This document shows, one piece after another, positions 10,926 to 26,038 of a DNA stretch of 38,369 nucleotides. The notes under the pieces were generated by a model, which was not told where the DNA came from, did no database searches, and worked only from the letters and a program-made list of their open reading frames with translations. Within the stretch, counting starts at the first letter, position 1, and the number at the start of each line of letters is the position of its first letter. This DNA comes from an uncultured Bacilli bacterium. GTDB lineage: Bacteria; Bacillota_I; Bacilli_A; RF39; UBA660. Both the position numbers and the translations under genes were made by a program. The stretch lies in contig CANRCI010000002.1 of NCBI GenBank assembly GCA_947629075.1, forward strand, positions 1 through 38,369, in the 5' to 3' direction.

Positions 10926-11000
10926 AGCCCATTATTTTACATAGTTAATATGTAAAATGTATGGTATAATGTTGTATATAGTAGTAAAGGTGGTGACTTG

Positions 11001-11699
11001 ATGGAGTTAATTAACATAAAAAGTGTTAATGTTCGTTATAAAAACGGAGTTAATGCTATATATGATTTATCTTTAAAGATTAAAAAAGGAGACTTTGTTT
11101 TTGTCATTGGTGGTTCAGGATGTGGAAAGTCTACTTTTATTAAAATGTTATATAGAGAAATTAAACCTAATAGTGGTGAAATAATTCTAGGTGGATTGAA
11201 CGTTGCGAAGCTTAGAAATAGTAAAGTTTACAAACTTAGAAGAAAGTTAGGAATAGTATTCCAAGATTATCGTCTATTACCTAAACTTACTGTTTATGAA
11301 AACGTTGCTTTTGCACTAGAGGTAATCGGTGCTAAAAAGAGTGAAATACAAGTTAAAACATTAAAAGCCATTGAATTAGTTGGACTTAAATCAAAGACGA
11401 GAATGTATCCCGATCAGTTGTCTGGTGGTGAACAACAGAGAGTAGCCATTGCTCGTGCTATAGTAAACAATCCAAAACTACTTCTTTGTGATGAGCCGAC
11501 AGGAAACTTGGATCCAGAAAAAAGTATGGAAATTATGAAAATTCTTGACAATATCAATAAGACGATTGGTACAACTATAATAATGGCTACCCATGATAAA
11601 GAAATTGTTAATAAGATGAAGAAACGTGTTATCGTGTTGAAAGATGGACATTTAGTAAAAGATTATGAGAAAGGAAAATACGATGATGAAATTGCTTAG
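11001..11699 (+). CDS. ftsE: Cell division ABC ATPase FtsE
   Basis: Walker [10 protein letters not shown], signature LSGGEQQR, Walker [13 protein letters not shown]. About 230 aa, immediately upstream of ftsX. ATG 11001 lies 5 nt after AAAGGTGGTG (TTG 10998 is also possible). Confidence 0.9.
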
Positions 11700-12585
11700 A
11701 ATGTTAGGTCGAGGTATAAGAGATGCCTCAAAGAGTGTAATAAGAAATTTTTCTTTATCGATGGCTTCCATTTCTTGTATATCAATAACGTTAATGGTTG
11801 TTGCCCTTGCTCTAGTGGTATCATTAAACGTCGATAACTTTACTAATATGATCGAAAGCGATGTTACAATGGTCATCTTTCTAGAGGGAAATGCAACTAC
11901 TGAAGATGTCGATAAAGTAAGTGATGAATTAGAAAAGATTAAAAACATTGAATCAATAACTTTTAAATCGAAGAAAGAACAACAAGAAGAAATGATGAAA
12001 GAAGACGAAGTATTCGAGACGATTATGAGCGACTGGGATGAAGATGAGTCATCACTAAGAGATAGCTTTTTAGTAAAAGTAGTCGATTTGGAAAAAATTG
12101 AAGATACTGCTAAAAAAGTTAAGAAAATTGATAAAATCGATAACGTCAACTATGGTGAAGAAATGGTCGATAGATTATTAGGAGCTTTCGACTTAGTTAA
12201 AAAAATAACGATTGCGATGGTTGTAACCCTAATAATAGTAACAATCTTCTTAATTATCAATACTATTAAATTGACGATTTTCTCGAGAAAGAGAGAGATA
12301 TCAATTATGCGATTAGTTGGAGCTTCGAATGCGACGATTAAATTGCCATTTGTCATAGAAGGAATGATTATCGGAGCCATTGGTTCAGTAGTTCCTATTC
12401 TATTAGTTATCTATGGTTATGTAGCTATGTATAATCATTTAGGAGGTATTATTTTCTCTAATTTAATTAAACTTATTACTCCAGAACCGTTTGTTTACAT
12501 CATATCACTAGTAGTACTAATTACTGGTATTATAGTTGGTATGTTGGGTAGTGCTAGGGCAGTAAGGAAATATTTAAAAGTATGA
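11683..12585 (+). CDS. ftsX: Cell division permease-like protein FtsX
   Basis: Four-TM FtsX topology with a large extracellular loop between TM1 and TM2; RKREISIMRLVGASN motif. Overlaps the ftsE end. Start ambiguous (11665, 11683 or 11686). Confidence 0.85.
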   Translation: MMKLLRMLGRGIRDASKSVIRNFSLSMASISCISITLMVVALALVVSLNVDNFTNMIESDVTMVIFLEGNATTEDVDKVSDELEKIKNIESITFKSKKEQQEEMMKEDEVFETIMSDWDEDESSLRDSFLVKVVDLEKIEDTAKKVKKIDKIDNVNYGEEMVDRLLGAFDLVKKITIAMVVTLIIVTIFLIINTIKLTIFSRKREISIMRLVGASNATIKLPFVIEGMIIGAIGSVVPILLVIYGYVAMYNHLGGIIFSNLIKLITPEPFVYIISLVVLITGIIVGMLGSARAVRKYLKV

Positions 12586-13775
12586 GAAAATTGTTAACGA
12601 TAATTCTTGCTCTTCTACTTTGTGTGTCGATAGTCCCTAGCCAAGTCGATGCCATTACTTTAGCAGAGTACGAGAAGAAATTAAAAGAATATAAAGATCA
12701 ACAAGCCGAAAATCAAGCTTCCATTAATCAAACCCAAGGACAGATCAATTCAGCTAATGCCAATATCAATGGAATAAAAAAAGAATTGGTCAATATGGGT
12801 AAAGAAATTGAAAAACTAGAAAAAGATGTCGTTAAATATAAAGAAGAAATTGAAAAGAAAGATGCAGAAATAAAAAAATTAGTAGAATATCTACAATTAT
12901 CAGGTGGCGAAAATGTATATTTAGAATACGCTTTTGGAGCTGATAATATTACTGATTTAATCTATCGTATGTCGATAGTAGAACAGATGACTAAAAAGAA
13001 TGACGATATGATTAAAGAACTAAAAGATTTAATTCAAAAAAGTAATGATCGCGAGAAAGAAATTAATACTAAAGAAAAAGAATTAAGTGTTAAACAAGAT
13101 GAATTATCTGATAAAGTACAAGCTCTAGGTGAAGAAAAAGAATCTTTACAGACAGGTGGAGTTAGTATTGCTCAACAAGTTAAGATATATCAGACACAAG
13201 TTGATACCTATAAGAAGTTAGGTTGTAAATCTAGTGATCGAATAGGAATCGATTGTGCTAAAAATGGTGAAGCTGGTATATTTAGACGTCCTACTAAATC
13301 GGGATATATTACTAGTGAATACGGATATCGTTGGGGAAAACTTCACCGAGCAGTCGATGTTGGTAATAAAAATCCTTATAGTACTAAAATATATCCAGTA
13401 GCAAACGGAAGAATTACTTCCATTCACCACGATTTATATGGAGCTTTAGTAGTACTAATTGAACACAATAAGAATGGTAAAATTTATACTTCTAACTATG
13501 CCCATCTTAGTAAATATTCTCCTAATATATATGTAGGAAAATACATTACTTCAGATGAATATATCGGTTATATGGGAGCAACGGGATATGTTACTGGACC
13601 ACACCTACATCTTGAGATATATCCATGTCGACTTTATAATGTTAACGATAAGAATTGTAGTACTTGGAGTAAATATGTCAATTATGCAGCTAAACTTACC
13701 AAGAATGGTTATAAAGGACCTAGATCTTTGATCAATTTCCCTAAAGGACTATATAATAGTTGGTCAACTAGATAA
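12582..13775 (+). CDS. Secreted coiled-coil / M23 (LytM-type) peptidoglycan metalloendopeptidase
   Basis: Signal peptide (LLCVSIVPSQVDA), a coiled-coil-prone stretch of about 190 aa, and an M23 domain with HRAVDVG (HxxxD) and GPHLHLEIY (HxH). ATGA overlap with ftsX. Confidence 0.85.
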   Translation: MRKLLTIILALLLCVSIVPSQVDAITLAEYEKKLKEYKDQQAENQASINQTQGQINSANANINGIKKELVNMGKEIEKLEKDVVKYKEEIEKKDAEIKKLVEYLQLSGGENVYLEYAFGADNITDLIYRMSIVEQMTKKNDDMIKELKDLIQKSNDREKEINTKEKELSVKQDELSDKVQALGEEKESLQTGGVSIAQQVKIYQTQVDTYKKLGCKSSDRIGIDCAKNGEAGIFRRPTKSGYITSEYGYRWGKLHRAVDVGNKNPYSTKIYPVANGRITSIHHDLYGALVVLIEHNKNGKIYTSNYAHLSKYSPNIYVGKYITSDEYIGYMGATGYVTGPHLHLEIYPCRLYNVNDKNCSTWSKYVNYAAKLTKNGYKGPRSLINFPKGLYNSWSTR

Positions 13776-16472: not shown

Positions 16473-16500
16473 TTGATTTTTTGAAAAAAACATGTATAAT
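16473..16500 (+). promoter_or_regulatory. Sigma-A-type promoter for the surface-fibre locus
   Basis: TTGATT (16473-16478), 16-nt spacer, TATAAT (16495-16500), about 35 nt upstream of the first gene. Confidence 0.55.
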
Positions 16501-16535: not shown

Positions 16536-18482
16536 GTGATTTTTGTGAATGAAAAAGAAAAAAAGAGAAAGAGAAAAATAAAAATTTTCTTTGCTAGTGC
16601 AGCAGTATTTGTTTTAGGTGTTGTGGGATATCAAATTAATAAGTCACCGGATCACGATTTAAATAGCGGAAAAGTAACAGTAGTAGTTCCGGATACTCCA
16701 AATAAGGATGTCGAAGATACTCACGAAGGTGATATGACAACGACAACAACTACTGAAGAAGCTGAAGACTTTGTAATCGATCAAGTTACTGAATCAGCCG
16801 ATAGTATAATTGGTGATATTTCATCAGTAGTCGATGCGGTCGACGATAAAAATATTACGGGTAAAGATCAAGAAACTAGTCAGGGTCAAGTAGCAGTTAA
16901 TCCAACTACTCCTAGTAAGCCTAGTACTCCAAGTAAACCTACTAAACCTAGTAAACCAAGTGAACCAGATACTCCAGTTAAACCAGAAATTCATGTTCAC
17001 GTTTATAGTGATTTACTAAATTATGACGACGATGTCGAATATATAAAATGTAATGGCTGCGATTTAATTATCACGAGAGCTCATAAACTTGGTGATAAAG
17101 TTTACGATAAAGAGAATCAAGAGTTAGTAGAAAAATGTGAAAACCCAGATTGTACTTACGAAATACGTACAACTCACAAATATCATCAAACTTTGAATTT
17201 TAAATCGGCAAGTGATAAAGGTGAAGAGTATGAGTGTGATGAATGTGGTGAAATAATAACTAAAGCTCATACTTACGGTGAAGTACATTACGATAAAGTA
17301 ACCCATGAAGCAATTCAGGATTGTGAGAATGAAGAATGTGGTTACGAACATCGCGAACTACACAAAGATCACGTTAGTACAACATTTAAATCAGCTGATA
17401 AAGAAAAAGAGATTTGGGAATGTGATGACTGTGGTGCCGAAATCGATAAAGACCATGTCTACGGTGCAGTTCACTACGACAAAGTAACGCACGAAGAAAT
17501 CAAAGATTGTGAAAATGAAGATTGTGGTTACGAACATCGTGAATTACATCAAAACCACACTAAGGCAACCCTTCAGTCACATACATCTGAAAAAGAGACT
17601 TGGAAATGTGATGATTGTGATGCAGAATTTGATAAAGCTCATGTCTATGGAAATGTGCATTACGATAAAGGTACGCATGAGGAAATTAAAACTTGTCAAA
17701 CTCCAGGATGTGGCGAAGAAGTTCGTACTGAACACCAAAACCACGTAAATGCTACATTTAAATCAAACGATAATTTAAAAGAAACTTGGGAATGTGACGA
17801 CTGTGGAGCAGAGTTTGAAAAAAGCCATGTTGTTGGAGCAGTTGAGATTGAAGAAGGAACATTTGACTGGGTTCAAAAATGTGAGACTCCAGAATGTACT
17901 TACGAAATCAGAGATCCACATGAAAATCATCACAACTATAAGATAGCTTCAAATGATGAAACTCATGAACATTGGGAATGTGAAGATTGCCATGATACAT
18001 TTGAAAAAGAACACGTCTTTAATGTAGGTGTAGAACAACCAGATGGAACACTTCTACAATCTTGTCAAAATGACGGTTGTGACTATCAGAGATATTGGCA
18101 TAACCATGTAGTTGGAAATGAAGAAAAAGTATTCTATAAACACGATGGTATCTATGATGAAAAAAAATGTTACACAATTATCTACAAATGTAGAATTTGT
18201 AACGAAGAAGTAAGAAGAGTAGATTACAACCACGATTTTGAAGAATATGCTGAATTTGGAATCAAGGTTTGTAAGAATGCTGGATGTGGTTATGAAGTAG
18301 AATATGAACCAATAAATGAAGTAAACGGAGTTAAAATAACTCAAGCACCAGCTGCAGCATTCGATACAACGGGATTAACTACCGAAACTTATGAAGCACC
18401 AACTTTGGAAGAATTTGAAAAAGAAGAAGAAGAAAAAGGGAAGGTATTATCATTATTACCTACTAAAAAAGAAGAATTTTAG
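16536..18482 (+). CDS. Membrane-anchored protein with acidic/Thr-rich and PT-rich linkers and seven Cys4/His-rich repeats (no family recognised)
   Basis: K/R-rich N-terminus plus one TM (IFFASAAVFVLGVVGY), linker PTTPSKPSTPSKPTKPSKPSEPDTPVKPE, then repeats of the form W-E-C-D-D-C-G-x24-C-E-N-x2-C-G-Y-E-H-R-E-L-H. Non-ATG start (GTG 16536 or 16545), uncertain. Confidence 0.7.
   Translation: MIFVNEKEKKRKRKIKIFFASAAVFVLGVVGYQINKSPDHDLNSGKVTVVVPDTPNKDVEDTHEGDMTTTTTTEEAEDFVIDQVTESADSIIGDISSVVDAVDDKNITGKDQETSQGQVAVNPTTPSKPSTPSKPTKPSKPSEPDTPVKPEIHVHVYSDLLNYDDDVEYIKCNGCDLIITRAHKLGDKVYDKENQELVEKCENPDCTYEIRTTHKYHQTLNFKSASDKGEEYECDECGEIITKAHTYGEVHYDKVTHEAIQDCENEECGYEHRELHKDHVSTTFKSADKEKEIWECDDCGAEIDKDHVYGAVHYDKVTHEEIKDCENEDCGYEHRELHQNHTKATLQSHTSEKETWKCDDCDAEFDKAHVYGNVHYDKGTHEEIKTCQTPGCGEEVRTEHQNHVNATFKSNDNLKETWECDDCGAEFEKSHVVGAVEIEEGTFDWVQKCETPECTYEIRDPHENHHNYKIASNDETHEHWECEDCHDTFEKEHVFNVGVEQPDGTLLQSCQNDGCDYQRYWHNHVVGNEEKVFYKHDGIYDEKKCYTIIYKCRICNEEVRRVDYNHDFEEYAEFGIKVCKNAGCGYEVEYEPINEVNGVKITQAPAAAFDTTGLTTETYEAPTLEEFEKEEEEKGKVLSLLPTKKEEF
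17043..18310 (+). repeat. In-frame tandem coding repeat, 186-nt (62-codon) period, 7 copies
   Basis: The first Cys codon of each CxxC is at 17049, 17235, 17421, 17607, 17793 and 17979 (exactly 186 nt apart), then 18189. Copies 2 and 3 are also clearly similar at nucleotide level. Confidence 0.9.
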
Positions 18483-18502: not shown

Positions 18503-19189
18503 ATGAAAAAGAATGATAAAAAATGGTACAAATCAGTTAGCAATTGGATATTTATACTTGTTTGTATAATTCTATTGCCAATTTTGTTAATGAATATTTG
18601 GATAATGGTCCAAGCAAAAAATGAACCGGATAAAATACCTAACGTATTTGGTTATAAACCTTTTATAGTTTTATCAGGTTCAATGGAAACAGAGATTTAT
18701 AAAGGTGATTTAGTAATTGCTAAAATGATTGATCCTAAAGAATTAAAAGTTGATGATATCATAGCATTCAGAGATCAAGAAAATACAGTTACAACCCACC
18801 GAATTATTGATATTGTAGAAGATGATGGTGAGACATTCTTTATCACAAAAGGTGATAACAACAACACTCAAGACCAAAATCTAGTTGAATACGAAGATGT
18901 CGAAGGAATTTATGTCTTACGTGTTCCTGGTGTTGGTAACTTAATGAATAGTCTTTCTGAAACAACTACAGTTGTAATAATAATAATGGGAATAACGATA
19001 ATATTTATCTTAGGTTTCTCAATCTCTAATAGAAAAGAGAGAAAAAAGGAAAGAGAAGAATATTTAGAATACAAGAAGATGAAAGAACAAGAGGAAAAAG
19101 AAAAACAACGAGAAGAAAAGCCGAAGGCTAAAAAGACAACGACCCCAAAGAAGACAACGAAGAAAAAGACAGATAAAAAGTCAAAATAA
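18503..19189 (+). CDS. sipW: ER/archaeal-type signal peptidase I (SipW-like), copy A, with Lys-rich C-terminal tail
   Basis: N-terminal TM, LSGSMETEIYKGDLV (Ser box), TTHRIIDI (His box), ITKGDNNNTQD, a C-terminal TM, then a charged tail of about 55 aa (RKERKKEREEY...KKTTKKKTDKKSK). Confidence 0.85.
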   Translation: MKKNDKKWYKSVSNWIFILVCIILLPILLMNIWIMVQAKNEPDKIPNVFGYKPFIVLSGSMETEIYKGDLVIAKMIDPKELKVDDIIAFRDQENTVTTHRIIDIVEDDGETFFITKGDNNNTQDQNLVEYEDVEGIYVLRVPGVGNLMNSLSETTTVVIIIMGITIIFILGFSISNRKERKKEREEYLEYKKMKEQEEKEKQREEKPKAKKTTTPKKTTKKKTDKKSK

Positions 19190-19298
19190 ATTTTGGTAAA
19201 CTGCTTTTTAAGCGTTTACATAGATTATAGGAATAGCATAAATTCCTATGCATAAAAATTTATGCGATTTAATACACAGGTGGGGGGAGGTGAAAAAT

Positions 19299-19898
19299 AT
19301 GAAAAAGAAAATAATCGCTATATTCGCTCTATTATTTGCTGTTGTATTAACTGGATCTTCAGTTAGTGGAACATATGCAAAATATGTAAGTGAGGTAAAA
19401 GGAACTTCTGACGAGGCAAGAGTAGCAAAATGGTCTTTTAAGGTTAATAATGAGGAGACAACTGCATCAAAAACTTTTACATTTAACTTGTTTGATACAA
19501 TAAAAGATACTGGTGATGCTCAAGAAGATGATGTTAAGTCAGGAAAGATTATAGCTCCAGGTACTGAAGGAAGTTTCAAATTGAGTTTGAAAAACGAATC
19601 AGAAGTAAATGCAAACATCAAAATAGATTATACAGTAACTAATAATAATGAAATTCCAATAGAATTTAGTACAGATAAAAAGAATTGGAAGGATACTTTA
19701 GATGCTTTACCAGAAGAAGAAATAGCTATGGAAAGTGGTACGAAAGATGTTACTGTTTATTGGAGATGGACTTATGACCCAAGCAGTGGGGGGGATACAC
19801 GTACTTCTGACACTGATGAAACAGATACCACTCTAGGTCAAGCTGGAGAGGCTAAAGTTAAGGTTGAAGCTAAGATTACTGTTACTCAAAAAGATTAA
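19299..19898 (+). CDS. Secreted TasA/camelysin-like small subunit P1 (SipW-dependent-type signal peptide)
   Basis: MKKKIIAIFALLFAVVLTGSSVSGTYAKYVSE; a beta-rich, Cys-free mature part with IIAPGTEGSFKLSLKNESEV and VYWRWTYD. Strong RBS GGGGGGAGGTG 7 nt before ATG 19299. The track's ATG at 19248 lies inside upstream hairpins. Confidence 0.75.
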   Translation: MKKKIIAIFALLFAVVLTGSSVSGTYAKYVSEVKGTSDEARVAKWSFKVNNEETTASKTFTFNLFDTIKDTGDAQEDDVKSGKIIAPGTEGSFKLSLKNESEVNANIKIDYTVTNNNEIPIEFSTDKKNWKDTLDALPEEEIAMESGTKDVTVYWRWTYDPSSGGDTRTSDTDETDTTLGQAGEAKVKVEAKITVTQKD

Positions 19899-20003: not shown

Positions 20004-23000
20004 ATGAATAAGTCTAATAATGATGAAAAAAGAAGATTTAAAATGATCATTATGATGTTAATTATTATTATCATTATTCTTTTACTTATAACTAGTTGTA
20101 ATTCTAAATATTGGGGTAGAATTGGTGAATACATTAATGAAACAGAAGTAGATTTAGATGATGATAGTGGCGAAAGAGATGTTATTTTAAATAAAAATTT
20201 AAGATTTGATGATGATAAATTTAATTTATATTTGAGCGATGTTGATGGTAGGTTGTCTTTTCACTATACAAATATTAAGCCTACTAATCTTACGTGTACT
20301 ACTAGTGATTCTGATATAGCAACTTGTTTTGTTAAAGATGGTTATGTAGTAGTTCATCCCAAAGATACTGGTGATATCGATGTTGTTGTAGAAGGTCTTG
20401 CTAATGGAAAGAAATATCGAGCTAAATCAAAGGTAAAAGTTAAAGACTCTAAACCGTATATAAGTTTATCTAGTAAACGTGGAACTATTAATCTTAAAGG
20501 TAATAAAAAAATAATTGTGTCTTATAGATTAGTAGGAATATCTGGTAATGTAACTGTTGATATTGATAACGATTCTATAGCTGATGTCAGTGTTAAGAAT
20601 GGAGTTCTTACAGTCGTTGGTAAGAAAGTAGGAAAAGCTAAGATTACAGTATCTGTTAAACGCAATTCCAAGACTTATAAAGATACATATAATTTAACAG
20701 TTATTAATACGACTAATAAAAAGAAATCTTCTAAGAGTAGTGATAGTTCATTAAAAAGCTTATCTTCCTCAAAAGGGAGGGTTAAGCTTAAGAGTGGAGT
20801 TTATGATTATTATGTTTCAGTAGATAATAGTGTTAAAAATTTAGATATTGATGCTGTACCTCGTGATAGCAAAGCTAAAGTTAAATATAAAGTAAATGGT
20901 AAAGTAGTAGATAATTTAAATGATGTTGAATTAAAAGTTGGTAACAATAAAATAGAAATAGTGGTTATAGCTGAAGATGGAAGTAGTACTACTTATCATG
21001 TTAATGTTAATAGATCTAAGCCTAGTAAATCTAGTAATAATTCATTATCTGAATTAAAAGTAAGTGAAGGTAGTTTGAGCCCTAAATTTAATGAGAAAGT
21101 TTTAGATTATCATGTTACTGTTGACTCTAGTGTTGATAGTATCGATATATATCCTAAAGTAAAAGATAAAAAAGCTAAAGTTAAATATAGATATAAGGGT
21201 AGAGAAGTAGAATCTCTTGAAGATTTACCACTAGAATTTGGTGATAATAAAGTTGAAATTTTGGTTACTAGTGAAAGTGGAGAAACTAAGAAATACACAG
21301 TTACTGTGGAAAAAAAGAAAAGCGATGACAACTATTTAAAAGATTTAGATGTATCTAGTGGTTCAGAATTGAAGTTTGATAAAAACACTAATAGTTATAC
21401 TGTTAATGTTCCTTATGATCAAGATACAATAACTGTTACTAGTGATGTTGAAGATTCTAAAAGTAAAACTAGTTATAAATTTAATGGTAAAGAAGTAGAA
21501 TCTCTTGAAGATTTAGAGCTAAACCCTGGAGATAATGAAGTAGAAGTTACAGTTACTAGTGAAAGTGGTAAAAAGAGAACTTATAAAGTTACTATTCATA
21601 AAGCTGTTAGAACTGTAGAATTTGATAGTAGTAGTTATACATTGGATATAGAAAATACTGGTATATTAGTTTATCGTGTCTATGAAGATGGTGTTCTTTT
21701 ATCTGATGATCAATATGATAAAGATGATATAGATTTTACTATTGAAGGATATCAAGGTACGATTGAAAAACACAATGGTTATATTTCGTTGATACCTGAT
21801 CCAAGTATGGCTGATGAAACTAAGAAAGCAACTATTCAATATGCTGGTTCAAGTTCTAGTGCTGATGTTACATTTAGGTACGTTGAACACTTTGTAAATT
21901 CACCAGTTGATGAATATGATGTCGATTTTACTGGTGATAATAATGAAAGAAGTTTTGTTCTACACAATAACATGTTTAGTGGAAATGTTAAGAGTAAGAG
22001 ATTGAACGATAGAACTATTCGTGTTTATGAAGAAGGAAACGAAGATATTTATATTGATATAGAATATGATCCTGATGAATTAGAAATAGAATCAGTTGAA
22101 GGTAGTACTTCAGTATCAGTAACAGTTAAACCTAAGAAATCTGGAAAGCTTAAATTAGGTGTAAGTGGATATTATAAAGGTGTTCCTGTTAATTCATTTC
22201 CAATTATAATAAATTCTATTATGAAATATATATTGAAATTGGATGCGAATGGTGGATATTTTGATCAATTTACTACTTATTATGAATTTGCATTAGAAGA
22301 AGATACAAACTTCGATTTAACTGATTACTTTGATGGTTATTATGAAGATGAAGATTGCTTACATTATCAGTTAGAATCTTTTAATACTTCCAAAGATGGT
22401 TCTGGTACTAAGTACGATTTTGATAATAAAAATATTGTGATAAAAGAAGACACAGTATTGTATGCGATTTATTCTAAAGATCCAATTGATGAACCGATCG
22501 AAGAAGAATACAATTATTACTTAGTCGATGTTGATTTATTCCATAATGAAGAGTATTTCCAAAAATATAATCGTGATAAAATTATTTATCCTGGTGCGAC
22601 TGGTTTTTATAAAATGACATTTGATAATAATACATCTTCTGATATAGAGATAACAAGTGTTACTTTAGAAGAAGATACTATTTGTGTTGATGAAGATGGT
22701 GTTAAGGGTTGTCTTAATATGGGATATGCTGTAAGAGATTATGAAGGTAATTACTATTTAGGTGGTAATAATAATTACAGTATTGTAAATAGGAAAGCTG
22801 ATGAAGTAGATGGTTATCATACTAAAAAAGTTATTACATTTAAGGATCCGATTACTTTAAATCATGGAGCATCAACTGAAATACATCTATTGTGGCAGTG
22901 GGTTGATTTTGATGATGATGGACCTAATGATAAATTAGATACTAAGATTGGTGATTATGCTGGTAATAAACTTAATGACATGTATCAGTTAACAGTTAGT

Positions 23001-23048
23001 ATTCAATTTAATAAAACCAAGACAACTTGTGATAAGAATGGTGGTTAA
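20004..23048 (+). CDS. Large multidomain surface protein P2: Big_2-like x2, cadherin-like beta-sandwich x3, Listeria-Bacteroides-type repeat, P1-like C-terminal domain
   Basis: ATG 20004 follows GAAGGGAG/AGAGGG. N-terminus MNKSNNDEKRRFKMIIMMLIIIIIILLLITSCNSKYW. Big_2-like SDSDIATCFVKDGYVVVHPKDTGDIDVVV and NDSIADVSVKNGVLTVVGKKVGKAKITV. Three units of SL(S/K)xLxVSxG...Y.V.V...TYxVxV. LKLDANGGYF...DGSGTKYDF...DTVLYAIY. The C-terminus parallels P1. The track's TTG at 19965 lies inside a hairpin. Confidence 0.75.
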   Translation: MNKSNNDEKRRFKMIIMMLIIIIIILLLITSCNSKYWGRIGEYINETEVDLDDDSGERDVILNKNLRFDDDKFNLYLSDVDGRLSFHYTNIKPTNLTCTTSDSDIATCFVKDGYVVVHPKDTGDIDVVVEGLANGKKYRAKSKVKVKDSKPYISLSSKRGTINLKGNKKIIVSYRLVGISGNVTVDIDNDSIADVSVKNGVLTVVGKKVGKAKITVSVKRNSKTYKDTYNLTVINTTNKKKSSKSSDSSLKSLSSSKGRVKLKSGVYDYYVSVDNSVKNLDIDAVPRDSKAKVKYKVNGKVVDNLNDVELKVGNNKIEIVVIAEDGSSTTYHVNVNRSKPSKSSNNSLSELKVSEGSLSPKFNEKVLDYHVTVDSSVDSIDIYPKVKDKKAKVKYRYKGREVESLEDLPLEFGDNKVEILVTSESGETKKYTVTVEKKKSDDNYLKDLDVSSGSELKFDKNTNSYTVNVPYDQDTITVTSDVEDSKSKTSYKFNGKEVESLEDLELNPGDNEVEVTVTSESGKKRTYKVTIHKAVRTVEFDSSSYTLDIENTGILVYRVYEDGVLLSDDQYDKDDIDFTIEGYQGTIEKHNGYISLIPDPSMADETKKATIQYAGSSSSADVTFRYVEHFVNSPVDEYDVDFTGDNNERSFVLHNNMFSGNVKSKRLNDRTIRVYEEGNEDIYIDIEYDPDELEIESVEGSTSVSVTVKPKKSGKLKLGVSGYYKGVPVNSFPIIINSIMKYILKLDANGGYFDQFTTYYEFALEEDTNFDLTDYFDGYYEDEDCLHYQLESFNTSKDGSGTKYDFDNKNIVIKEDTVLYAIYSKDPIDEPIEEEYNYYLVDVDLFHNEEYFQKYNRDKIIYPGATGFYKMTFDNNTSSDIEITSVTLEEDTICVDEDGVKGCLNMGYAVRDYEGNYYLGGNNNYSIVNRKADEVDGYHTKKVITFKDPITLNHGASTEIHLLWQWVDFDDDGPNDKLDTKIGDYAGNKLNDMYQLTVSIQFNKTKTTCDKNGG
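20740..21605 (+). repeat. Three tandem cadherin-like beta-sandwich coding repeats (about 288-nt period)
   Basis: Identical 24-nt run GAAGTAGAATCTCTTGAAGATTTA at 21204-21227 and 21492-21515 (288 nt apart). GTTACTAGTGAAAGTGG is also shared. Confidence 0.85.
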
Positions 23049-23049
23049 G

Positions 23050-23625
23050 ATGAAGAAGTTAAAAAGAATAATAACTGGTGTTGTAGGAGTTATCTTAGCG
23101 CTTATCTTGTTGTTCAACATCTACAATTTCATCAACATAAAAATATTGAAAAATGACCTAACCACAGTCTTTGGTTATTCAGTGTTAGAAGTAGTATCTG
23201 GTTCGATGGAACCAACTATTAAAAAAGGTGATTTGATAATTATCAAAGTCAAAAACTTTGAATATCACCCAGGGGATATTGTGACTTTCACTGATGTCGA
23301 AGGTTCATTTGTAACCCACAGAATTGTAATGTTACAAAGAGATAAGATGACTACTAAAGGTGATAACAACAATACTGAAGATGAAAGCTTGCCAGCTAAA
23401 AACATCATTGGTAAATATATGTTTAGAATTGCTGGATTTGGAACTATATTACAAACGATAAAAAATCCTGTCGTAAGCATTATGATATTTGTAATTGGTG
23501 TTCTAATATGCTATGTCTTGGTCGATAATGAAGAGAATAAAGTTGTACCTTTAGAAGAACAAGCTGAATACGATAAATATTTAGTTGAGAAAAAGAAAAA
23601 TAGACAAAATAAAAAGAAAAGGTGA
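23050..23625 (+). CDS. sipW: ER/archaeal-type signal peptidase I (SipW-like), copy B
   Basis: VVSGSMEPTIKKGDLI, VTHRIVML, TTKGDNNNTED, C-terminal TM and a short KKKNRQNKKKR tail. ATG 23050 lies 1 nt after the P2 stop and 5 nt after GGTGG. Confidence 0.85.
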   Translation: MKKLKRIITGVVGVILALILLFNIYNFINIKILKNDLTTVFGYSVLEVVSGSMEPTIKKGDLIIIKVKNFEYHPGDIVTFTDVEGSFVTHRIVMLQRDKMTTKGDNNNTEDESLPAKNIIGKYMFRIAGFGTILQTIKNPVVSIMIFVIGVLICYVLVDNEENKVVPLEEQAEYDKYLVEKKKNRQNKKKR

Positions 23626-23630
23626 AAATT

Positions 23631-24266
23631 ATGAAAGGATTATTACATAGTAAAAGATTTCGCAAAAACTTATCTAAATGGTTATTTATGTATATAGGAA
23701 CTATGCTTCTATTTACTACTGTAATAACCTATTCTAAATACATCAGTAGTATGATGAGTAGCGATGGAGCACGAGTTGCTAAATTCGATGTTTCAGTCGT
23801 ATCTGATAAGTGTTCATCTACTGAGAATGGCAGTTTGGAATGTAATACTGGTAAGTATCGTCCAACTCAAGAGATAAAATATTATTTTACTCTAAAAGCA
23901 AATGTTGAAGTTAAAACCGATATATATTTAACAGTATTTTTAAATAATTCATTCAAGATGATTAGTGTTAAAGAAGTTGGAAATGCAACTCCTGAAAGTA
24001 TTGTTTGTAACACTGGAGATGTGAGTGATCGAACGATTGCTGGATATACGAGATGTAAATTTAAAGCTAAAGAATTTGCTTTAGACCAAGAACAAAAAGA
24101 GAGAAAATATGAAGTAACAGTTAAGTTCGATAATACTTATTGTTCTAACAAAGAAAGTGAGTATTATTGTAATCAAAATAAAGACCCAGAGGATTATAAG
24201 AGTGTTACTAATGATTTATACAATATATTGCGAGTTGACTATGCAGCAACTCAGGTAAAAAATTAG
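23631..24266 (+). CDS. Secreted TasA-like small subunit P3 (P1 paralog with three Cys pairs)
   Basis: LFMYIGTMLLFTTVITYSKYISSMMSSDGARVAKF parallels P1 GTYAKYVSEVKGTSDEARVAKW. YYFTLKANVEVKTDIYL parallels P1 FKLSLKNESEVNANIKI. ATG 23631 lies 6 nt after AAAGGTGA. Confidence 0.7.
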   Translation: MKGLLHSKRFRKNLSKWLFMYIGTMLLFTTVITYSKYISSMMSSDGARVAKFDVSVVSDKCSSTENGSLECNTGKYRPTQEIKYYFTLKANVEVKTDIYLTVFLNNSFKMISVKEVGNATPESIVCNTGDVSDRTIAGYTRCKFKAKEFALDQEQKERKYEVTVKFDNTYCSNKESEYYCNQNKDPEDYKSVTNDLYNILRVDYAATQVKN

Positions 24267-24278
24267 AGGGGGATTATA

Positions 24279-26015
24279 ATGGAGTTTACTGATATATTAA
24301 AAAAACGAGCTATCATTGATAAAATTATCTTTTATGCATTAGCTTTCATATTCATTGGCAATATTATTGTTGTTACTCCTACTTGCTCTAAGTATGTTTC
24401 TGAAAAGTCTGATGCGGTGATATATAACAATAATCTTTATACTGTCAATAAAGGTAATCTTGCAATTCACTATGAGGAAAATTTATCTGAAAGTGATGTA
24501 TTGGTTGCTACTTTTCGTTTATCTCCAAATGATATTGGGGTAGCTCATGAAGACGATAAATATATGATTAGTTTTACTGATGGATGTACTTTATCAATTT
24601 ATGATGGAGATGAAAATGTAATTAGTAATAGTTCTGATTATAAAGAAATGAAAGTATCCGGAGAAGTTATTATACTTGCTACTTGTCCAGTTGCAACTTC
24701 TGATATTAAAGATGGTAATAGATATAAAGTTGAAGCCTCTATTCGTGAACAGGCAAATAATGAAGATGTATTTGTATATCAGAGTGGTTATGCTGTAGTT
24801 GCTAGCTTACCTCAAAAGGAAGAAACTGGGACTACTAAGAAGGTAGTTACTGGTGAAGGTGTTAATGTCTATGGAGAATTAAAAAAATGGTTATTTAGTT
24901 ACACAGATCAAAATTATAGTGATCAAACAGCCTCTGAGTTTAAAAGATTAATTGAACAATATATAGCAAAGTATGAAAGTAATGTTTTTGATGATGGTTT
25001 ACCAGGATTAAAGATTGAAAAACAGAGTGATGGTTATTTATTTACAATAGAGGATAACTTGTTTGGTTATGCTAGAACGTATGATGATTATTTACTTGGC
25101 AGAAGTGTTAAGACGTTTTATTTTCATACTGATAATGAGGATGCCAAACGTGAAGCTTTTGATTATTATTTAGAAAATTATACCGGTTTAAGCGCTAGTG
25201 ATGTTGTGACTGTTAAAAAATATTTAGAGTTAAATAATTTTGACATCATTACTTATCTAGCGACTGGGACTCCAGCAATTACTGGTTTGAGCAGAGGATC
25301 ATCAGGTGAAGAAAATATTGGTGTTATGGTTTCTAGATTGTTGAGTGCAGCTCAGGCAGCTTTCCCTACTGGTGATGAAGGAGCTAGGGACGATGGACCT
25401 TCTATTGAAGAACCTACAAATCCAACTCAACCTGTTGAACCAGATGAACCTGAAGTAACTGATCCACCATTTGATAATTCATCTATTCCATTTGGAACAA
25501 GAGAAGAAATGATTAAATATTTTGAAAGTTATATGAACAATATTAAAACAACTCATCCTGAATATAACATTTCAGAAGAAACGATAAATAGTATTATTTC
25601 TAATCAAGATATTGTTGAATCAGCTGTTAAAAATAACACTGAGTCAGGAGTAACAGGAGCATTTAATGATTACTTTAACATCGTTGATGGTAATCAATAT
25701 TTACTCGTTAAAGTTTATTCTGATGGAGTATCTAACAATATGTTAGAAATCAAAGAAACTGGTATTAGTACTGATATGGTAAGTACCTTTGAAATAATTA
25801 ATAATCCTGATAATACTTTAAATGTTAATTTTAAATTTACAGCTTTAGATTTAGAAAACATCGAAGTTACCGAAGAAGAAATAGCTAAAGTAAAAGAAAT
25901 AGTTACTTTACTAGATAAGACATTTGAAGTAAATAATCTTGATGATTTAGATACCACTGAAATACTTAAAAATGAAGGGGTTATTGAATTTAGTTATCAA
26001 ATTCAAAATCAATAG
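24279..26015 (+). CDS. Exported or membrane-anchored 578-aa protein P4, unknown function
   Basis: N-terminal TM IIFYALAFIFIGNIIVVTPTCSKYVSE with the shared SKY motif; internal Pro-rich linker EEPTNPTQPVEPDEPEVTDPP. RBS AGAGGGGGA. No recognisable domain. Confidence 0.65.
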   Translation: MEFTDILKKRAIIDKIIFYALAFIFIGNIIVVTPTCSKYVSEKSDAVIYNNNLYTVNKGNLAIHYEENLSESDVLVATFRLSPNDIGVAHEDDKYMISFTDGCTLSIYDGDENVISNSSDYKEMKVSGEVIILATCPVATSDIKDGNRYKVEASIREQANNEDVFVYQSGYAVVASLPQKEETGTTKKVVTGEGVNVYGELKKWLFSYTDQNYSDQTASEFKRLIEQYIAKYESNVFDDGLPGLKIEKQSDGYLFTIEDNLFGYARTYDDYLLGRSVKTFYFHTDNEDAKREAFDYYLENYTGLSASDVVTVKKYLELNNFDIITYLATGTPAITGLSRGSSGEENIGVMVSRLLSAAQAAFPTGDEGARDDGPSIEEPTNPTQPVEPDEPEVTDPPFDNSSIPFGTREEMIKYFESYMNNIKTTHPEYNISEETINSIISNQDIVESAVKNNTESGVTGAFNDYFNIVDGNQYLLVKVYSDGVSNNMLEIKETGISTDMVSTFEIINNPDNTLNVNFKFTALDLENIEVTEEEIAKVKEIVTLLDKTFEVNNLDDLDTTEILKNEGVIEFSYQIQNQ

Positions 26016-26038
26016 GAACAATTAGTTCCTATTTTTTG
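26011..26038 (+). terminator. Intrinsic terminator closing the surface locus
   Basis: AATAGGAAC-AATTA-GTTCCTATT plus T-run. Confidence 0.8.

What the first reader, a model, noticed from the sequence alone, without database searches (positions are those of the whole stretch)
16536..18482. Predicted extracellular protein with seven 62-residue Cys4/His-rich (zinc-ribbon-like) repeats at an exact 186-nt period
The K/R-rich N-terminus followed by a single TM predicts N-in topology. That places an acidic/poly-Thr stretch, a PT-rich linker and the repeats outside the cell. Each repeat reads roughly W-E-C-D-D-C-G-A-E-x-D-K-x-H-V-Y-G-x-V-H-Y-D-K-x-T-H-E-E-I-K-x-C-E-N-x-x-C-G-Y-E-H-R-E-L-H-x-N-H. This is a CxxC...Cx4C pair of knuckles plus about 6-7 His per repeat. 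CxxC/CxxxxC zinc ribbons are typically intracellular, so seven of them on an extracellular stalk at the head of a fibre operon is odd. Possible roles are metal (Zn/Ni) capture, disulfide-stapled spacer beads, or an anchor or nucleator for the fibre. I recognise no family.
Basis: partly seen in the sequence, partly recalled or inferred. Interest (0 to 1): 0.7.

Follow-up and report, generated by a model that had tools for sequence, protein, structure and literature searches.

The report
Surface stalk of metal-binding Cys/His repeats
A gut Firmicute gene encodes a protein predicted to be held on the cell surface, built from seven small cysteine/histidine (probably zinc-binding) beads; it belongs to an unannotated family that always heads a seven-gene operon predicted to export fibre-like proteins, so it is probably the stalk that holds those fibres on the cell.

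Summary
ORF 16536-18482 (648 aa) has a basic N-terminus, one hydrophobic anchor, an acidic/Pro-Thr linker, six Cys4/His units at an exact 62-aa period, and a seventh divergent "cap" unit offset by 70 aa.

No Pfam, NCBIfam or PDB family reaches threshold. A profile of the unit finds about 35 bacterial clusters of the same architecture. About half have a lipobox, so the repeats lie outside the membrane.

Across 155 units, C20, H31, C49 and C54 are (near-)invariant. The other conserved positions change only to other metal ligands (Cys to Asp 13 times, His to Cys 11 times, Glu to Asp or His 5 times). This favours metal binding over disulfides.

AlphaFold gives an all-beta unit with only local zinc-ribbon resemblance. 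The best sequence match is the RPA12 (TFIIS-type) ribbon, E 0.003.

All 10 family members examined are followed directly by a SipW orthologue. All 7 long contigs carry the same seven genes: head, SipW, pilin-like, cadherin-like, SipW2, pilin-like, large protein.

Best reading: a metal-stapled, length-variable stalk that tethers a SipW-dependent fibre or adhesin. It fills the slot TapA fills in tapA-sipW-tasA but is not homologous to TapA. Metal binding, fibre formation and the role of a conserved C-terminal tail are all inferred, not shown.

The parts
16473..16500 (+). Promoter-like site (TTGATT-16-TATAAT, 10/12) 36 nt upstream of the start codon
   Evidence: Consensus scan. This is a consensus match only; the number of such sites is not above the shuffled expectation.
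16536..18482 (+). Head gene: 648-aa Cys/His-repeat protein (GTG start, stop included)
   Evidence: ORF list; translation. Orthologues share the same layout.
16536..16631 (+). Basic N-terminus (aa 1-16, net +6) plus the only hydrophobic segment (aa 17-32, IFFASAAVFVLGVVGY): a signal-anchor or an uncleaved/type I signal. It has no lipobox Cys, unlike about half of the homologues.
   Evidence: Hydropathy and charge; lipobox survey.
16632..16991 (+). Acidic low-complexity region with poly-Thr (aa 33-120, net -16), then the Pro/Thr/Ser/Lys linker (aa 121-152). This is the presumed wall-spanning spacer.
   Evidence: 9/18/27-nt microrepeats at 16898-16966.
16992..18131 (+). Six regular units (aa 153-214, 215-276, 277-338, 339-400, 401-462, 463-532). 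Unit layout: H-x(1,2)-H ... E-x-W-x-C-x2-C-G-x7-H ... C-x4-C-G-Y ... H.
   Evidence: AlphaFold model of unit 3: pLDDT 83.5, six beta strands.
18132..18326 (+). Seventh, divergent 'cap' unit (aa 533-597). It has an extra Cys (C545) 7 residues before CRIC and a His (H566) 11 residues after it, then Cx4C. The regular-unit Glu16 and His31 positions and the trailing HxH are absent. This unit type ends the array in the homologues read.
   Evidence: sequences read directly.
18327..18479 (+). Acidic tail ending in the conserved C-terminal motif (GKVLSLLPTKKEEF, 18438-18479): a short alternating-hydrophobic strand flanked by Lys/Arg.
   Evidence: Tails of 34 family proteins listed. The motif was recognised by eye; a simple regex captured it poorly.
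18503..19189 (+). SipW-type signal peptidase 1 (228 aa), 20 nt downstream of the head gene
   Evidence: TIGR02228 104 bits (cutoff 51.85); SipW equivalog 113.6 bits, below its 190 cutoff. 60-74% identical orthologues follow every head gene examined.
19299..19898 (+). pilA: 199-aa secreted beta-sandwich protein with the invariant signal motif VSGTYAKY followed by ARVAKW (the listed ORF starts at 19248)
   Evidence: AlphaFold pLDDT 79.6. Only weak Foldseek hits to chaperone-usher pilins and the TasA fibre.
20004..23048 (+). Roughly 1014-aa protein with an N-terminal anchor, Big_2 and three cadherin-like beta-sandwich domains. Its C-terminal region shares pilA motifs only weakly.
   Evidence: Pfam PF12733 at 5.7e-42; (weak).
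23050..23625 (+). SipW-type signal peptidase 2 (S24/S26)
   Evidence: TIGR02228 90.5 bits; PF00717; orthologues.
23631..24266 (+). pilB: 211-aa paralogue of pilA (TYSKY, ARVAKF) with six Cys in C-x7-10-C pairs
   Evidence: BLASTP E 2e-4 against pilA.
24279..26015 (+). 578-aa secreted protein with the same signal motif (TCSKYVS); last gene of the cassette
26011..26033 (+). Terminator-like hairpin plus T-run at the end of the cassette
   Evidence: consensus scan.

Best explanation
The gene encodes a cell-surface stalk.

**Anatomy (read from the sequence)**
- The basic N-terminus and hydrophobic segment hold the protein in the membrane, as a signal-anchor here and as a lipid anchor in many homologues.
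- The acidic and Pro/Thr linker crosses the wall zone.
- Seven small all-beta Cys/His modules follow.

**Mechanism (inferred)**
- The modules form a rod stapled by bound metal, most likely zinc.
- Each regular 62-aa unit is a pseudo-duplicated pair of mini zinc-ribbon-like hairpins.
- My favoured ligand assignment is two sites per unit. Site A uses the HxH/HxxH motif plus the CxxC knuckle. Site B uses Glu16, His31 and the Cx4C knuckle.
- The alternative is one TFIIS-like Cys4 site per unit, with the His and Glu residues in a second role.

**Role in the operon**
- The protein is the first product of a conserved seven-gene operon (shown). The other genes are two SipW-type signal peptidases and four secreted proteins that share a SipW-type signal motif.
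- The head protein lacks that motif (shown), so it probably stays on the cell (inferred).
- Its conserved C-terminal basic, strand-like tail, at the end of the rod far from the membrane, would dock or tether the fibre or adhesin made from the other proteins (inferred). This is the job TapA does for TasA in Bacillus subtilis, by a non-homologous protein.
For: **Topology**
- Net charge of +6 at the N-terminus and a single hydrophobic segment.
- Canonical lipoboxes in about 12 homologues.

**Metal binding rather than disulfides**
- In 155 aligned units C49, C54 and H31 are 155/155 and C20 is 154/155.
- C23 is Cys 138 and Asp 13. H3 is His 142 and Cys 11. E16 is Glu 150, Asp 4 and His 1. Y56 is Tyr 122 and His 15.
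- Knuckle spacing varies between CxC, CxxC, Cx4C and CxxD.
- In the cap unit the Glu16-equivalent (Cys545, 7 residues before the first knuckle) and the His31-equivalent (His566, 11 residues after it) both move outward by three residues. This is what cross-strand neighbours in one site would do.

**Fold**
- The AlphaFold unit has pLDDT 83.5, six strands and no helix.
- Local Foldseek matches are to C4 zinc ribbons: aIF2-beta at rmsd 1.4 A over 27 columns and XPA at 2.0 A over 36 columns.
- The unit profile hits the RPA12 zinc ribbon across both knuckles, E 0.003.
- Sub-threshold Pfam hits are to zinc-ribbon families.
- The two half-units align to each other, P 8e-4.

**Scaffold rather than binding domain**
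- Only the ligand positions and a few core residues are conserved.
- Unit number varies from 2 to 11 per protein, with near-identical neighbouring units in P0003.
- A similar module sits in an unrelated surface lipoprotein with Big_2 and BspA-LRR domains.

**Link to the SipW cassette**
- 10 of 10 head proteins are followed by a SipW orthologue that is 60-74% identical.
- The same seven genes occur on all 7 long contigs, in different chromosomal neighbourhoods.
- Two further cassettes reached through pilA (L013, L014) again start with a divergent Cys/His-repeat protein that has the same kind of tail.
- A promoter-like site and a terminator-like hairpin bracket the seven genes.

**Head protein is not a SipW substrate**
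- The [ST]-x-[AS]-K-[YF] motif is invariant in pilA and pilB, and present in variant form in the large and cadherin-like proteins. It is absent from all 10 head proteins.

**Tail**
- The C-terminal motif is seen in most of 34 tails.
Against: - No metal has been measured and no model coordinates could be inspected. The ligand assignment rests on strand order and conservation only.
- The RPA12 match, and the CxxC-x25-Cx4C spacing shared with P0075, argue for one Cys4 site instead of two mixed sites.
- pilB carries paired Cys, so extracellular disulfides may form in this organism.
- The window protein itself has no lipobox. It could be cleaved after VVG and released.
- The 'fibre' is not demonstrated. 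pilA and pilB match no TasA, camelysin or SipW-cognate model. The pilA profile hits nothing in PDB sequences. Foldseek matches are weak: best E 2e-3, TasA E 0.03 with TM 0.30.
- pilB shares pilA's N-terminal ARVAK[WF] segment. pilB, not the head protein, could be the TapA-like nucleator.
- A related SipW/pilA cassette (L015) has no head gene.
- The docking role of the C-terminal tail is untested, and the motif was defined by eye.
- The head protein is the fastest-diverging gene of the cassette (21-39% identity). That would also fit an exposed ligand-binding protein.
Confidence: 0.45

Rival explanations
1. Metal capture or buffering. The protein is a surface zinc (or nickel) sponge, like the pneumococcal histidine-triad (Pht) lipoproteins. 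It would concentrate metal at the surface or protect against metal excess. The link to the SipW operon would be incidental or regulatory.
For: - There are many conserved Cys/His/Glu ligand positions per molecule.
- The window protein has extra, non-conserved His in units 2-4 and 6.
- Many homologues are lipoproteins.
- One locus (L007) has a ZnuA gene about 8 kb downstream.
- The comparison with Pht proteins rests on my own knowledge.
Against: - No metal transporter is consistently nearby. The only constant neighbours are the SipW cassette genes.
- Invariant buried-type ligand sets in tiny beta modules look structural rather than exchangeable.
- There is no Pfam hit to Strep_his_triad or any metal-binding lipoprotein family.
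Confidence: 0.12
2. Disulfide-stapled spacer beads. The four Cys of each unit form two disulfides and no metal is involved.
For: - The location is extracytoplasmic.
- pilB in the same operon has Cys in C-x7-10-C pairs that look like disulfide loops.
- The CxC first knuckle in P0001 is unusual for a zinc knuckle.
Against: - 13 of 155 units replace one Cys by Asp while keeping the other three Cys.
- His3 is replaced by Cys in 11 units.
- His31 is as invariant as the Cys, and Glu16 is 150/155.
- The window protein has an odd Cys count, 29.
- All weak family and fold resemblances are to zinc ribbons.
Confidence: 0.08
3. Independent adhesin or host/matrix-binding protein. The repeats themselves bind a ligand (glycan, mineral, another cell). 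The protein is co-expressed with the SipW system but does not anchor it.
For: - It is the fastest-evolving gene of the cassette, at 21-39% identity against 60-74% for SipW.
- Repeat number is variable.
- A similar module occurs in a BspA-LRR/Big_2 surface protein.
- The L015-type cassette works without it.
Against: - No surface patch is conserved outside the ligand and core positions.
- The strict head position directly upstream of SipW in 10 of 10 cases, and the conserved C-terminal tail, suggest a dedicated partner within the operon.
Confidence: 0.2

Closest known systems
TFIIS/RPB9/RPA12-type C4 zinc ribbon
   Same: Two Cys knuckles are separated by about 24-25 residues of beta hairpin and the module is all-beta. 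The profile-to-sequence match to RPA12 covers both knuckles (E 0.003). Pfam Zn_ribbon_RPB9 gives sub-threshold hits in 6 units. RPC11 appears among the Foldseek hits.
   Different: - Those ribbons are single intracellular domains of the transcription machinery. Here there are 2-11 tandem copies outside the membrane.
- The second knuckle here is usually Cx4C and the first can be CxC or CxxD.
- This family has three invariant or near-invariant His and a Glu that those ribbons lack.
- The AlphaFold strand layout puts the two knuckles apart.
- No Pfam threshold is reached.
TapA (YqxM), first gene of tapA-sipW-tasA in Bacillus subtilis
   Same: It is the first gene of an operon, directly upstream of a SipW-type signal peptidase and a small secreted beta-sandwich protein. 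The proposed role, cell-side anchor or accessory of the secreted polymer, is the same. TapA's biology is from my own knowledge, because the literature tools failed.
   Different: - There is no sequence similarity and no TapA/YqxM NCBIfam hit.
- TapA is 253 aa, has no repeats, and carries a SipW-type signal.
- The head protein here lacks the cassette's SipW-type motif. It is a lipoprotein or a signal-anchored protein.
- pilB may be the closer functional analogue of TapA.
Pneumococcal histidine-triad (Pht) lipoproteins
   Same: They are surface lipoproteins with several repeated small zinc-binding motifs (own knowledge).
   Different: The motif (HxxHxH) and fold are different and Pht proteins have no Cys knuckles. 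There is no Pfam hit. Pht genes sit with zinc-uptake genes, not with SipW.
Eukaryotic C2H2 (KRAB-type) zinc fingers
   Same: The first half-unit, (Y/W)-x-C-x2-C-G-x-x-(F/I)-...-H, resembles the C2H2 consensus closely enough that most of the best 150 profile hits listed are such proteins, and the unit profile also hits C2H2 chains in the PDB.
   Different: Only profile positions about 6-34 match. The His follows at +8, not +12. AlphaFold shows no helix. The resemblance is at motif level and does not indicate homology.
Pfam DUF7838 (PF25208) and CFSR (PF19079) repeats of Firmicute surface proteins
   Same: P0075 scores 32.9 bits on DUF7838 and P0056, a true head protein, scores 38.9 bits on CFSR. 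Both contain Cys/His modules picked up by the unit profile.
   Different: The window protein does not hit either model at E <= 0.01, and neither appears among the families shown for the 84 aligned units. Both Pfam families are of unknown function. His positions relative to the knuckles differ in P0075.

Membership tests
C4 zinc ribbon (TFIIS/RPB9 type) | Two CxxC-type knuckles supplying four Cys | tested here: met
   CxxC plus Cx4C occur in all 7 units. Family-wide, C20, C49 and C54 are (near-)invariant and C23 is Cys in 138 of 155 units.
C4 zinc ribbon (TFIIS/RPB9 type) | Both knuckles come together at one end of a three-stranded sheet to bind one Zn | tested here: inconclusive
   The AlphaFold strand order (E15-20, knuckle, E26-30, E33-39, E44-49, knuckle, E57-61) places the knuckles apart. 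The RPA12 sequence alignment spans both knuckles.
C4 zinc ribbon (TFIIS/RPB9 type) | Match to a curated family model above its threshold | tested here: not met
   Zn_ribbon_RPB9, LysW, CSL and related models hit only below their cutoffs. Foldseek gave no hit with E <= 0.001.
C2H2 zinc finger | Beta-beta-alpha fold with the His ligands on a helix, C-x2-4-C-x12-H-x3-5-H | tested here: not met
   There is no helix in the model. The His is at +8 from the second Cys.
TapA/YqxM | Sequence homology to TapA | tested here: not met
   NCBIfam and Pfam show no such hit even at E <= 10.
TapA/YqxM | First gene of an operon, directly upstream of sipW and a secreted fibre subunit | tested here: met
   There is a 20-nt gap to SipW. 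The arrangement is conserved in 10 of 10 loci. That the subunit forms a fibre was not tested.
TapA/YqxM | SipW-type signal peptide | tested here: not met
   The cassette's [ST]x[AS]K[YF] motif is absent from all 10 head proteins.
Bacterial lipoprotein | Lipobox [LVI][ASTVI][GAS]C at the end of the signal peptide | tested here: not met
   The window protein has ...LGVVGYQ with no Cys. About 12 homologues do have a lipobox.
TasA / camelysin (for the neighbouring pilA) | Match to Peptidase_M73/TasA or SipW-cognate signal models | tested here: not met
   No Pfam or NCBIfam hit. The pilA profile hits nothing in PDB sequences.
TasA / camelysin (for the neighbouring pilA) | TasA-like beta-sandwich fold with an N-terminal donor strand | tested here: inconclusive
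   The model is a beta sandwich. Foldseek gives TasA fibre 8aur_A at E 0.03 and TM 0.30. Chaperone-usher pilins score E 2e-3 to 2e-2.
Pht histidine-triad proteins | HxxHxH triads; Strep_his_triad Pfam match | tested here: not met
   No Pfam hit. The H-x(1,2)-H pairs here are always coupled to Cys knuckles.
Zinc-binding protein (any) | Stoichiometric bound metal | not testable with these tools
   This needs ICP-MS or a solved structure. Only the ligand-type substitution pattern is available.

The most novel reading that the evidence does not exclude
The first extracellular poly-zinc-ribbon rod. It would be a membrane-tethered stalk of tandem mini zinc ribbons, with two metal sites per 62-aa unit and about 14 metal ions per molecule. 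The stalk would span the Gram-positive wall, and its conserved C-terminal strand would plug into a so-far undescribed, widespread SipW-dependent fibre/adhesin system of gut Firmicutes. Display of the fibre would then depend on extracellular zinc.
Probability: 0.25. Interest if true: 0.8.

Novelty: new variant of a known kind. Interest (0 to 1): 0.62.

Why it matters
- Zinc ribbons and zinc knuckles are textbook intracellular modules, mostly nucleic-acid-binding. To my knowledge Firmicutes tend to avoid Cys in exported proteins. A family of surface proteins built almost entirely from tandem Cys/His knuckle modules would add a new building block for Gram-positive surface stalks, alongside Ig-like, collagen-like and Pro-rich spacers.
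- The work also exposes a conserved, completely unannotated seven-gene SipW cassette. The pilin-like protein alone has at least 563 homologues, none with a Pfam domain. The cassette is common in gut metagenome assemblies and may be a major biofilm or adhesion system of uncultured Bacilli and Clostridia.
- If the head protein is the anchor, it answers for these organisms the question TapA answers for Bacillus subtilis: how a fibre that is not attached by sortase stays on the cell.

Tried and rejected
- **Pfam and NCBIfam scans.** I scanned the whole protein, 84 single units and about 20 homologues. Nothing reached a cutoff.
- **Whole protein against PDB sequences.** Only noise.
- **Word-indexed protein search.** The whole protein found one homologue. 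The 84-unit alignment found none, because the units are too short for the word index. That search was wasted.
- **Exhaustive profile search.** It worked, but most of the best 150 hits listed are eukaryotic C2H2 zinc fingers that match only half a unit. I rejected these as motif-level resemblance after reading the sequences.
- **Genome collection scan.** It returned only the rabbit-gut MAG already known, so the window's own organism could not be named.
- **Foldseek on the unit model.** No significant hit.
- **Foldseek on the pilA model.** Only weak hits.
- **Structure prediction with locus-derived pilA homologues.** I redid it with database homologues.
- **Model coordinates.** They are not exposed, so Cys-Cys and His-Cys distances could not be measured.
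- **Homology of the cadherin-like protein's C-terminus to pilA.** Only weak: BLASTP E 0.15, and hhalign E 0.007 over 24 columns.
- **Rfam on the window.** No hits. The apparently empty 31.5-38.4 kb stretch turned out to be one giant open ORF.
- **Literature tools.** Every call failed. Statements about TapA/TasA, Pht proteins, Cys exclusion and wall thickness rest on my own knowledge, and prior description of this family could not be excluded.
Full report
**1. What is in the sequence**

The ORF 16536-18482 (+ strand, GTG start, 648 aa) exists as described. Its parts, from N- to C-terminus, are as follows.

- A basic N-terminus: aa 1-16, net charge +6.
- The only hydrophobic segment of the protein: aa 17-32.
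- An acidic region with a poly-Thr run, then a Pro/Thr/Ser/Lys linker: aa 33-152.
- The repeats: aa 153-597.
- An acidic tail ending in GKVLSLLPTKKEEF.

The first knuckle (CxxC) lies at aa 172, 234, 296, 358, 420 and 482. That is six copies exactly 62 aa (186 nt) apart. A seventh lies at 552, offset by 70 aa. The second knuckle (Cx4C) lies at 201, 263, 325, 387, 449, 510 and 579.

The seventh unit is a different, terminal unit type. It has an extra Cys (C545) and lacks the trailing His pair.

The regular units are 15-66% identical to each other as protein and 35-70% as DNA. Each unit scores 50-86 bits against the unit profile, so the repeat is not a chance pattern.

The protein is 4.5% Cys and 5.7% His. 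The other proteins of the window that I checked have 0-2.8% Cys and 0-2.3% His.

**2. Is it a known family?**

No. Pfam gives nothing. NCBIfam gives only a sub-threshold generic CxxC model, 23 bits against a cutoff of 37.

Scanning 84 single units against Pfam gives only sub-threshold hits. They are to various zinc-binding families such as LysW, PyrI_C, RPB9, CSL, Ogr/Delta and rubredoxin-like.

The word-indexed search of 5.8 billion proteins found a single homologue, P0001 (38% identity, 767 aa), from a rabbit-gut 'uncultured Bacilli' MAG.

The exhaustive profile search over 1.84 billion cluster representatives found 352 hits. After reading the sequences, about 35 are bacterial proteins with the same architecture:

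- an N-terminal anchor;
- a low-complexity spacer;
- 2-11 Cys/His units;
- a cap unit;
- an acidic tail with a short C-terminal motif, hydrophobic-x-hydrophobic flanked by Lys/Arg.

Most of the other hits among the 150 listed are eukaryotic C2H2 zinc-finger proteins that match only profile positions about 6-34. That is a motif-level resemblance. None of the clusters looked up carries a name.

**3. Location**

About 12 of the roughly 28 full-length homologues have a canonical lipobox at the end of the N-terminal hydrophobic stretch, for example LSGC, IGSC, VGGC, ASSC or VSGC. These are therefore lipoproteins, and everything after the anchor is outside the membrane.

The window protein and P0001 have lost the Cys. 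They should be signal-anchored, or possibly cleaved by a type I peptidase.

**4. Metal or disulfide?**

I aligned 155 units from 33 proteins to the unit model. The counts at the conserved positions are:

| Position | Residues found |
|---|---|
| H3 | His 142, Cys 11 |
| E16 | Glu 150, Asp 4, His 1 |
| C20 | Cys 154, Asp 1 |
| C23 | Cys 138, Asp 13, other 4 |
| H31 | His 155 |
| C49 | Cys 155 |
| C54 | Cys 155 |
| Y56 | Tyr 122, His 15, Phe 7 |

In the 84-unit alignment, H1 is His in 64 of 84 units.

So the conserved positions change almost only to other metal-ligand residues. One Cys can be lost to Asp while its three partners stay. That is what a metal site does and what a disulfide pair does not.

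The first knuckle can be CxC (as in P0001), CxxC, Cx4C or CxxD. The second can be CxxC or Cx4C.

I conclude that metal binding, most likely zinc, is the better reading. It has not been measured.

**5. Fold and ligand assignment**

AlphaFold2 on unit 3, with the 14 units of the two closest proteins as the alignment, gives pLDDT 83.5 and six strands with no helix: 6-11, 15-20, 26-30, 33-39, 44-49 and 57-61. This rules out a C2H2 fold.

Foldseek finds no significant PDB match. It finds only short local matches to C4 zinc ribbons: aIF2-beta at 1.4 A over 27 columns, XPA at 2.0 A over 36 columns, and RPC11.

The strand order implies three things.

- Knuckle 1 sits at the turn between strands 2 and 3, next to H3.
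- Knuckle 2 sits at the turn between strands 5 and 6, next to H31.
- The two knuckles are several strand residues apart.

The spacings H3-to-C20 (17 residues) and H31-to-C49 (18 residues) are nearly equal, and each knuckle is followed by a His at +8. The two half-units also align to each other (hhalign P 8e-4).

I therefore favour a pseudo-duplicated unit with two sites: {H1 or H62 of the previous unit, H3, C20, C23} and {E16, H31, C49, C54}.

In the cap unit the E16-equivalent is Cys545, 7 residues before the knuckle instead of 4. The H31-equivalent is His566, 11 residues after it instead of 8. Both shift by three residues, as cross-strand neighbours would.

The alternative is one TFIIS-like Cys4 site per unit. 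Two results support it.

- The best PDB sequence hit of the 84-unit profile is the RPA12 C-terminal zinc ribbon, aligned over both knuckles (E 0.003).
- The CxxC-x25-Cx4C spacing is kept in P0075, where the His positions differ.

**6. Gene context**

The head gene is followed after 20 nt by a SipW-type signal peptidase (TIGR02228, 104 bits against a cutoff of 51.85). After that come, in order:

- a 199-aa secreted protein (pilA);
- a roughly 1000-aa cadherin-like protein (PF12733, 5.7e-42);
- a second SipW-type peptidase;
- a pilA paralogue (pilB; BLASTP E 2e-4);
- a 578-aa secreted protein.

A promoter-like site at 16473-16500 and a terminator-like hairpin at 26011-26033 bracket these seven genes. 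No terminator-like site on the + strand lies between them.

I looked up nine other family members. All nine are followed directly by an orthologue of SipW-1 that is 60-74% identical. Every contig long enough (seven in all, including the window) has the same seven genes in the same order. The cassette sits in different chromosomal neighbourhoods.

The head protein is the most divergent gene of the set, at 21-39% identity.

pilA has at least 563 homologues, none with a Pfam domain and, where a source names them, 'hypothetical'. I looked up three cassettes through pilA.

- L013 and L014 begin with a more divergent Cys/His-repeat protein that the unit profile had missed. Both have the same kind of C-terminal tail.
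- L015, of Ruminococcaceae type, has SipW and pilA but no head gene.

**7. Who is cut by SipW?**

pilA carries the invariant motif VSGTYAKY after its signal helix, and pilB carries V[IV]TYS[KR]Y. The large protein and the cadherin-like protein carry variants (THSKY, TCSKY, TSC.SKFWG).

None of the 10 head proteins has this motif.

From my own knowledge, the motif resembles the GGGTWA|AF cleavage region of B. subtilis TasA. The ARVAKW/F segment that follows sits where TasA has its donor strand.

The pilA model is a beta sandwich (pLDDT 79.6), and its best PDB matches are weak. They include GOLD domains, chaperone-usher pilins such as FimG bound to a donor-strand peptide, and the TasA fibre at rank 15 (E 0.03, TM 0.30). 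No TasA, camelysin or SipW-cognate model matches, and the pilA profile hits nothing in PDB sequences.

That the operon makes a fibre is therefore a reasonable inference, not a result.

**8. Most likely mechanism**

*Shown*
- The repeats are extracytoplasmic, by the family's lipoboxes.
- A conserved set of ligand-type residues exists.
- The head gene is strictly linked to the SipW cassette.
- The head protein lacks the cassette's signal motif.
- The repeat number varies, and little is conserved outside the ligand and core positions.

*Inferred*
- The head protein stays on the cell while the other four proteins are cut and released by the SipW peptidases.
- Its metal-stapled modules form a stiff rod of adjustable length beyond the wall-spanning linker.
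- Its conserved C-terminal strand-like tail, at the far end of the rod, holds the polymer or the cadherin-like adhesin.

This is the role of TapA in tapA-sipW-tasA, carried out by an unrelated protein. I give the whole package a confidence of about 0.45.

*Rivals*
- A self-standing adhesin: 0.2.
- A Pht-like metal sponge: 0.12.
- Disulfide-stapled beads: 0.08.
- pilB, not the head protein, may be the TapA-like nucleator.

**9. Novelty and interest**

The module is related in kind to zinc ribbons and zinc knuckles, but it differs in three ways. It is used in tandem, it lies outside the cell, and it has its own conserved His/Glu set. It matches no curated family.

The operon it heads is widespread in gut metagenome assemblies and is wholly unannotated.

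I rate the finding a new variant of a known kind, with interest 0.62. The literature tools failed throughout the session, so I could not check whether this family has been described in a recent paper.

Noticed in passing
window 31940-38369 (+): One giant ORF of at least 2143 codons with no stop runs off the end of the window. It has a signal peptide, hydrophobic segments near aa 180-240 and dockerin/EF-hand-like DxNxDGK motifs. The ORF listing does not show it, which made 31.5-38.4 kb look empty. Rfam finds nothing there.
   Followed up: partly
window 19299-19898, 23631-24266, 24279-26015, 20004-23048: All four secreted proteins of the cassette share a motif right after the signal helix (SGTYAKY, TYSKY, TCSKY, SCNSKYW). 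In pilA and pilB it is followed by ARVAK[WF]. This is probably the SipW recognition site plus a donor-strand-like segment. pilA has at least 563 homologues with no Pfam domain.
   Followed up: partly
window 23631-24266 (pilB): pilB has six Cys arranged as C-x7-10-C pairs, also seen in its orthologues. pilA has no Cys at all. The pairs may be extracellular disulfide loops.
   Followed up: no
window 22350-23045 (C-terminus of the cadherin-like protein): The last ~230 residues share pilA's motif order (IIxPGxxGxxK ... WxW ... DTxxG ... final strand). The similarity is weak: BLASTP E 0.15, and hhalign E 0.007 over 24 columns. This may be a pilin-like domain fused to an adhesin.
   Followed up: partly
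window 18503-19189 and 23050-23625: The operon has two paralogous SipW-type peptidases, about 36% identical to each other. Each is conserved as its own orthologous group across loci. The first has a long Lys-rich C-terminal tail.
   Followed up: partly
P0075 (869 aa, ENA contig of 4973 nt): A lipoprotein with Big_2, an InlB B-repeat and BspA-type LRR domains carries about 10 related Cys/His modules. It hits Pfam DUF7838 (32.9 bits). The module is therefore also used in surface proteins outside the SipW cassette.
   Followed up: partly
P0017, P0086, P0088, P0093, L013:6560-9199: Some head proteins carry an extra domain between the anchor and the repeats that gives sub-threshold hits to DUF3597. 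P0025 and P0054 show a similar stretch by eye. It may be a wall-binding module. The window protein lacks it.
   Followed up: no
P0003 aa 388-509: Two neighbouring units are nearly identical, pointing to recent tandem duplication. In the window, units 2 and 3 are the most similar pair (66% protein, 70% DNA). Unit number therefore evolves by local duplication.
   Followed up: no
window 10998-13775: An FtsE/FtsX pair is followed by a coiled-coil M23 peptidase (PcsB-like). This is a cell-division hydrolase module, and it lies upstream of an NfeD/SPFH pair and a GT2 glycosyltransferase.
   Followed up: no
L004 14118-15164: A 348-aa protein just after the cassette in locus L004 starts with two CxxC zinc-ribbon motifs and has no signal peptide. 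It is probably unrelated to the head protein.
   Followed up: no
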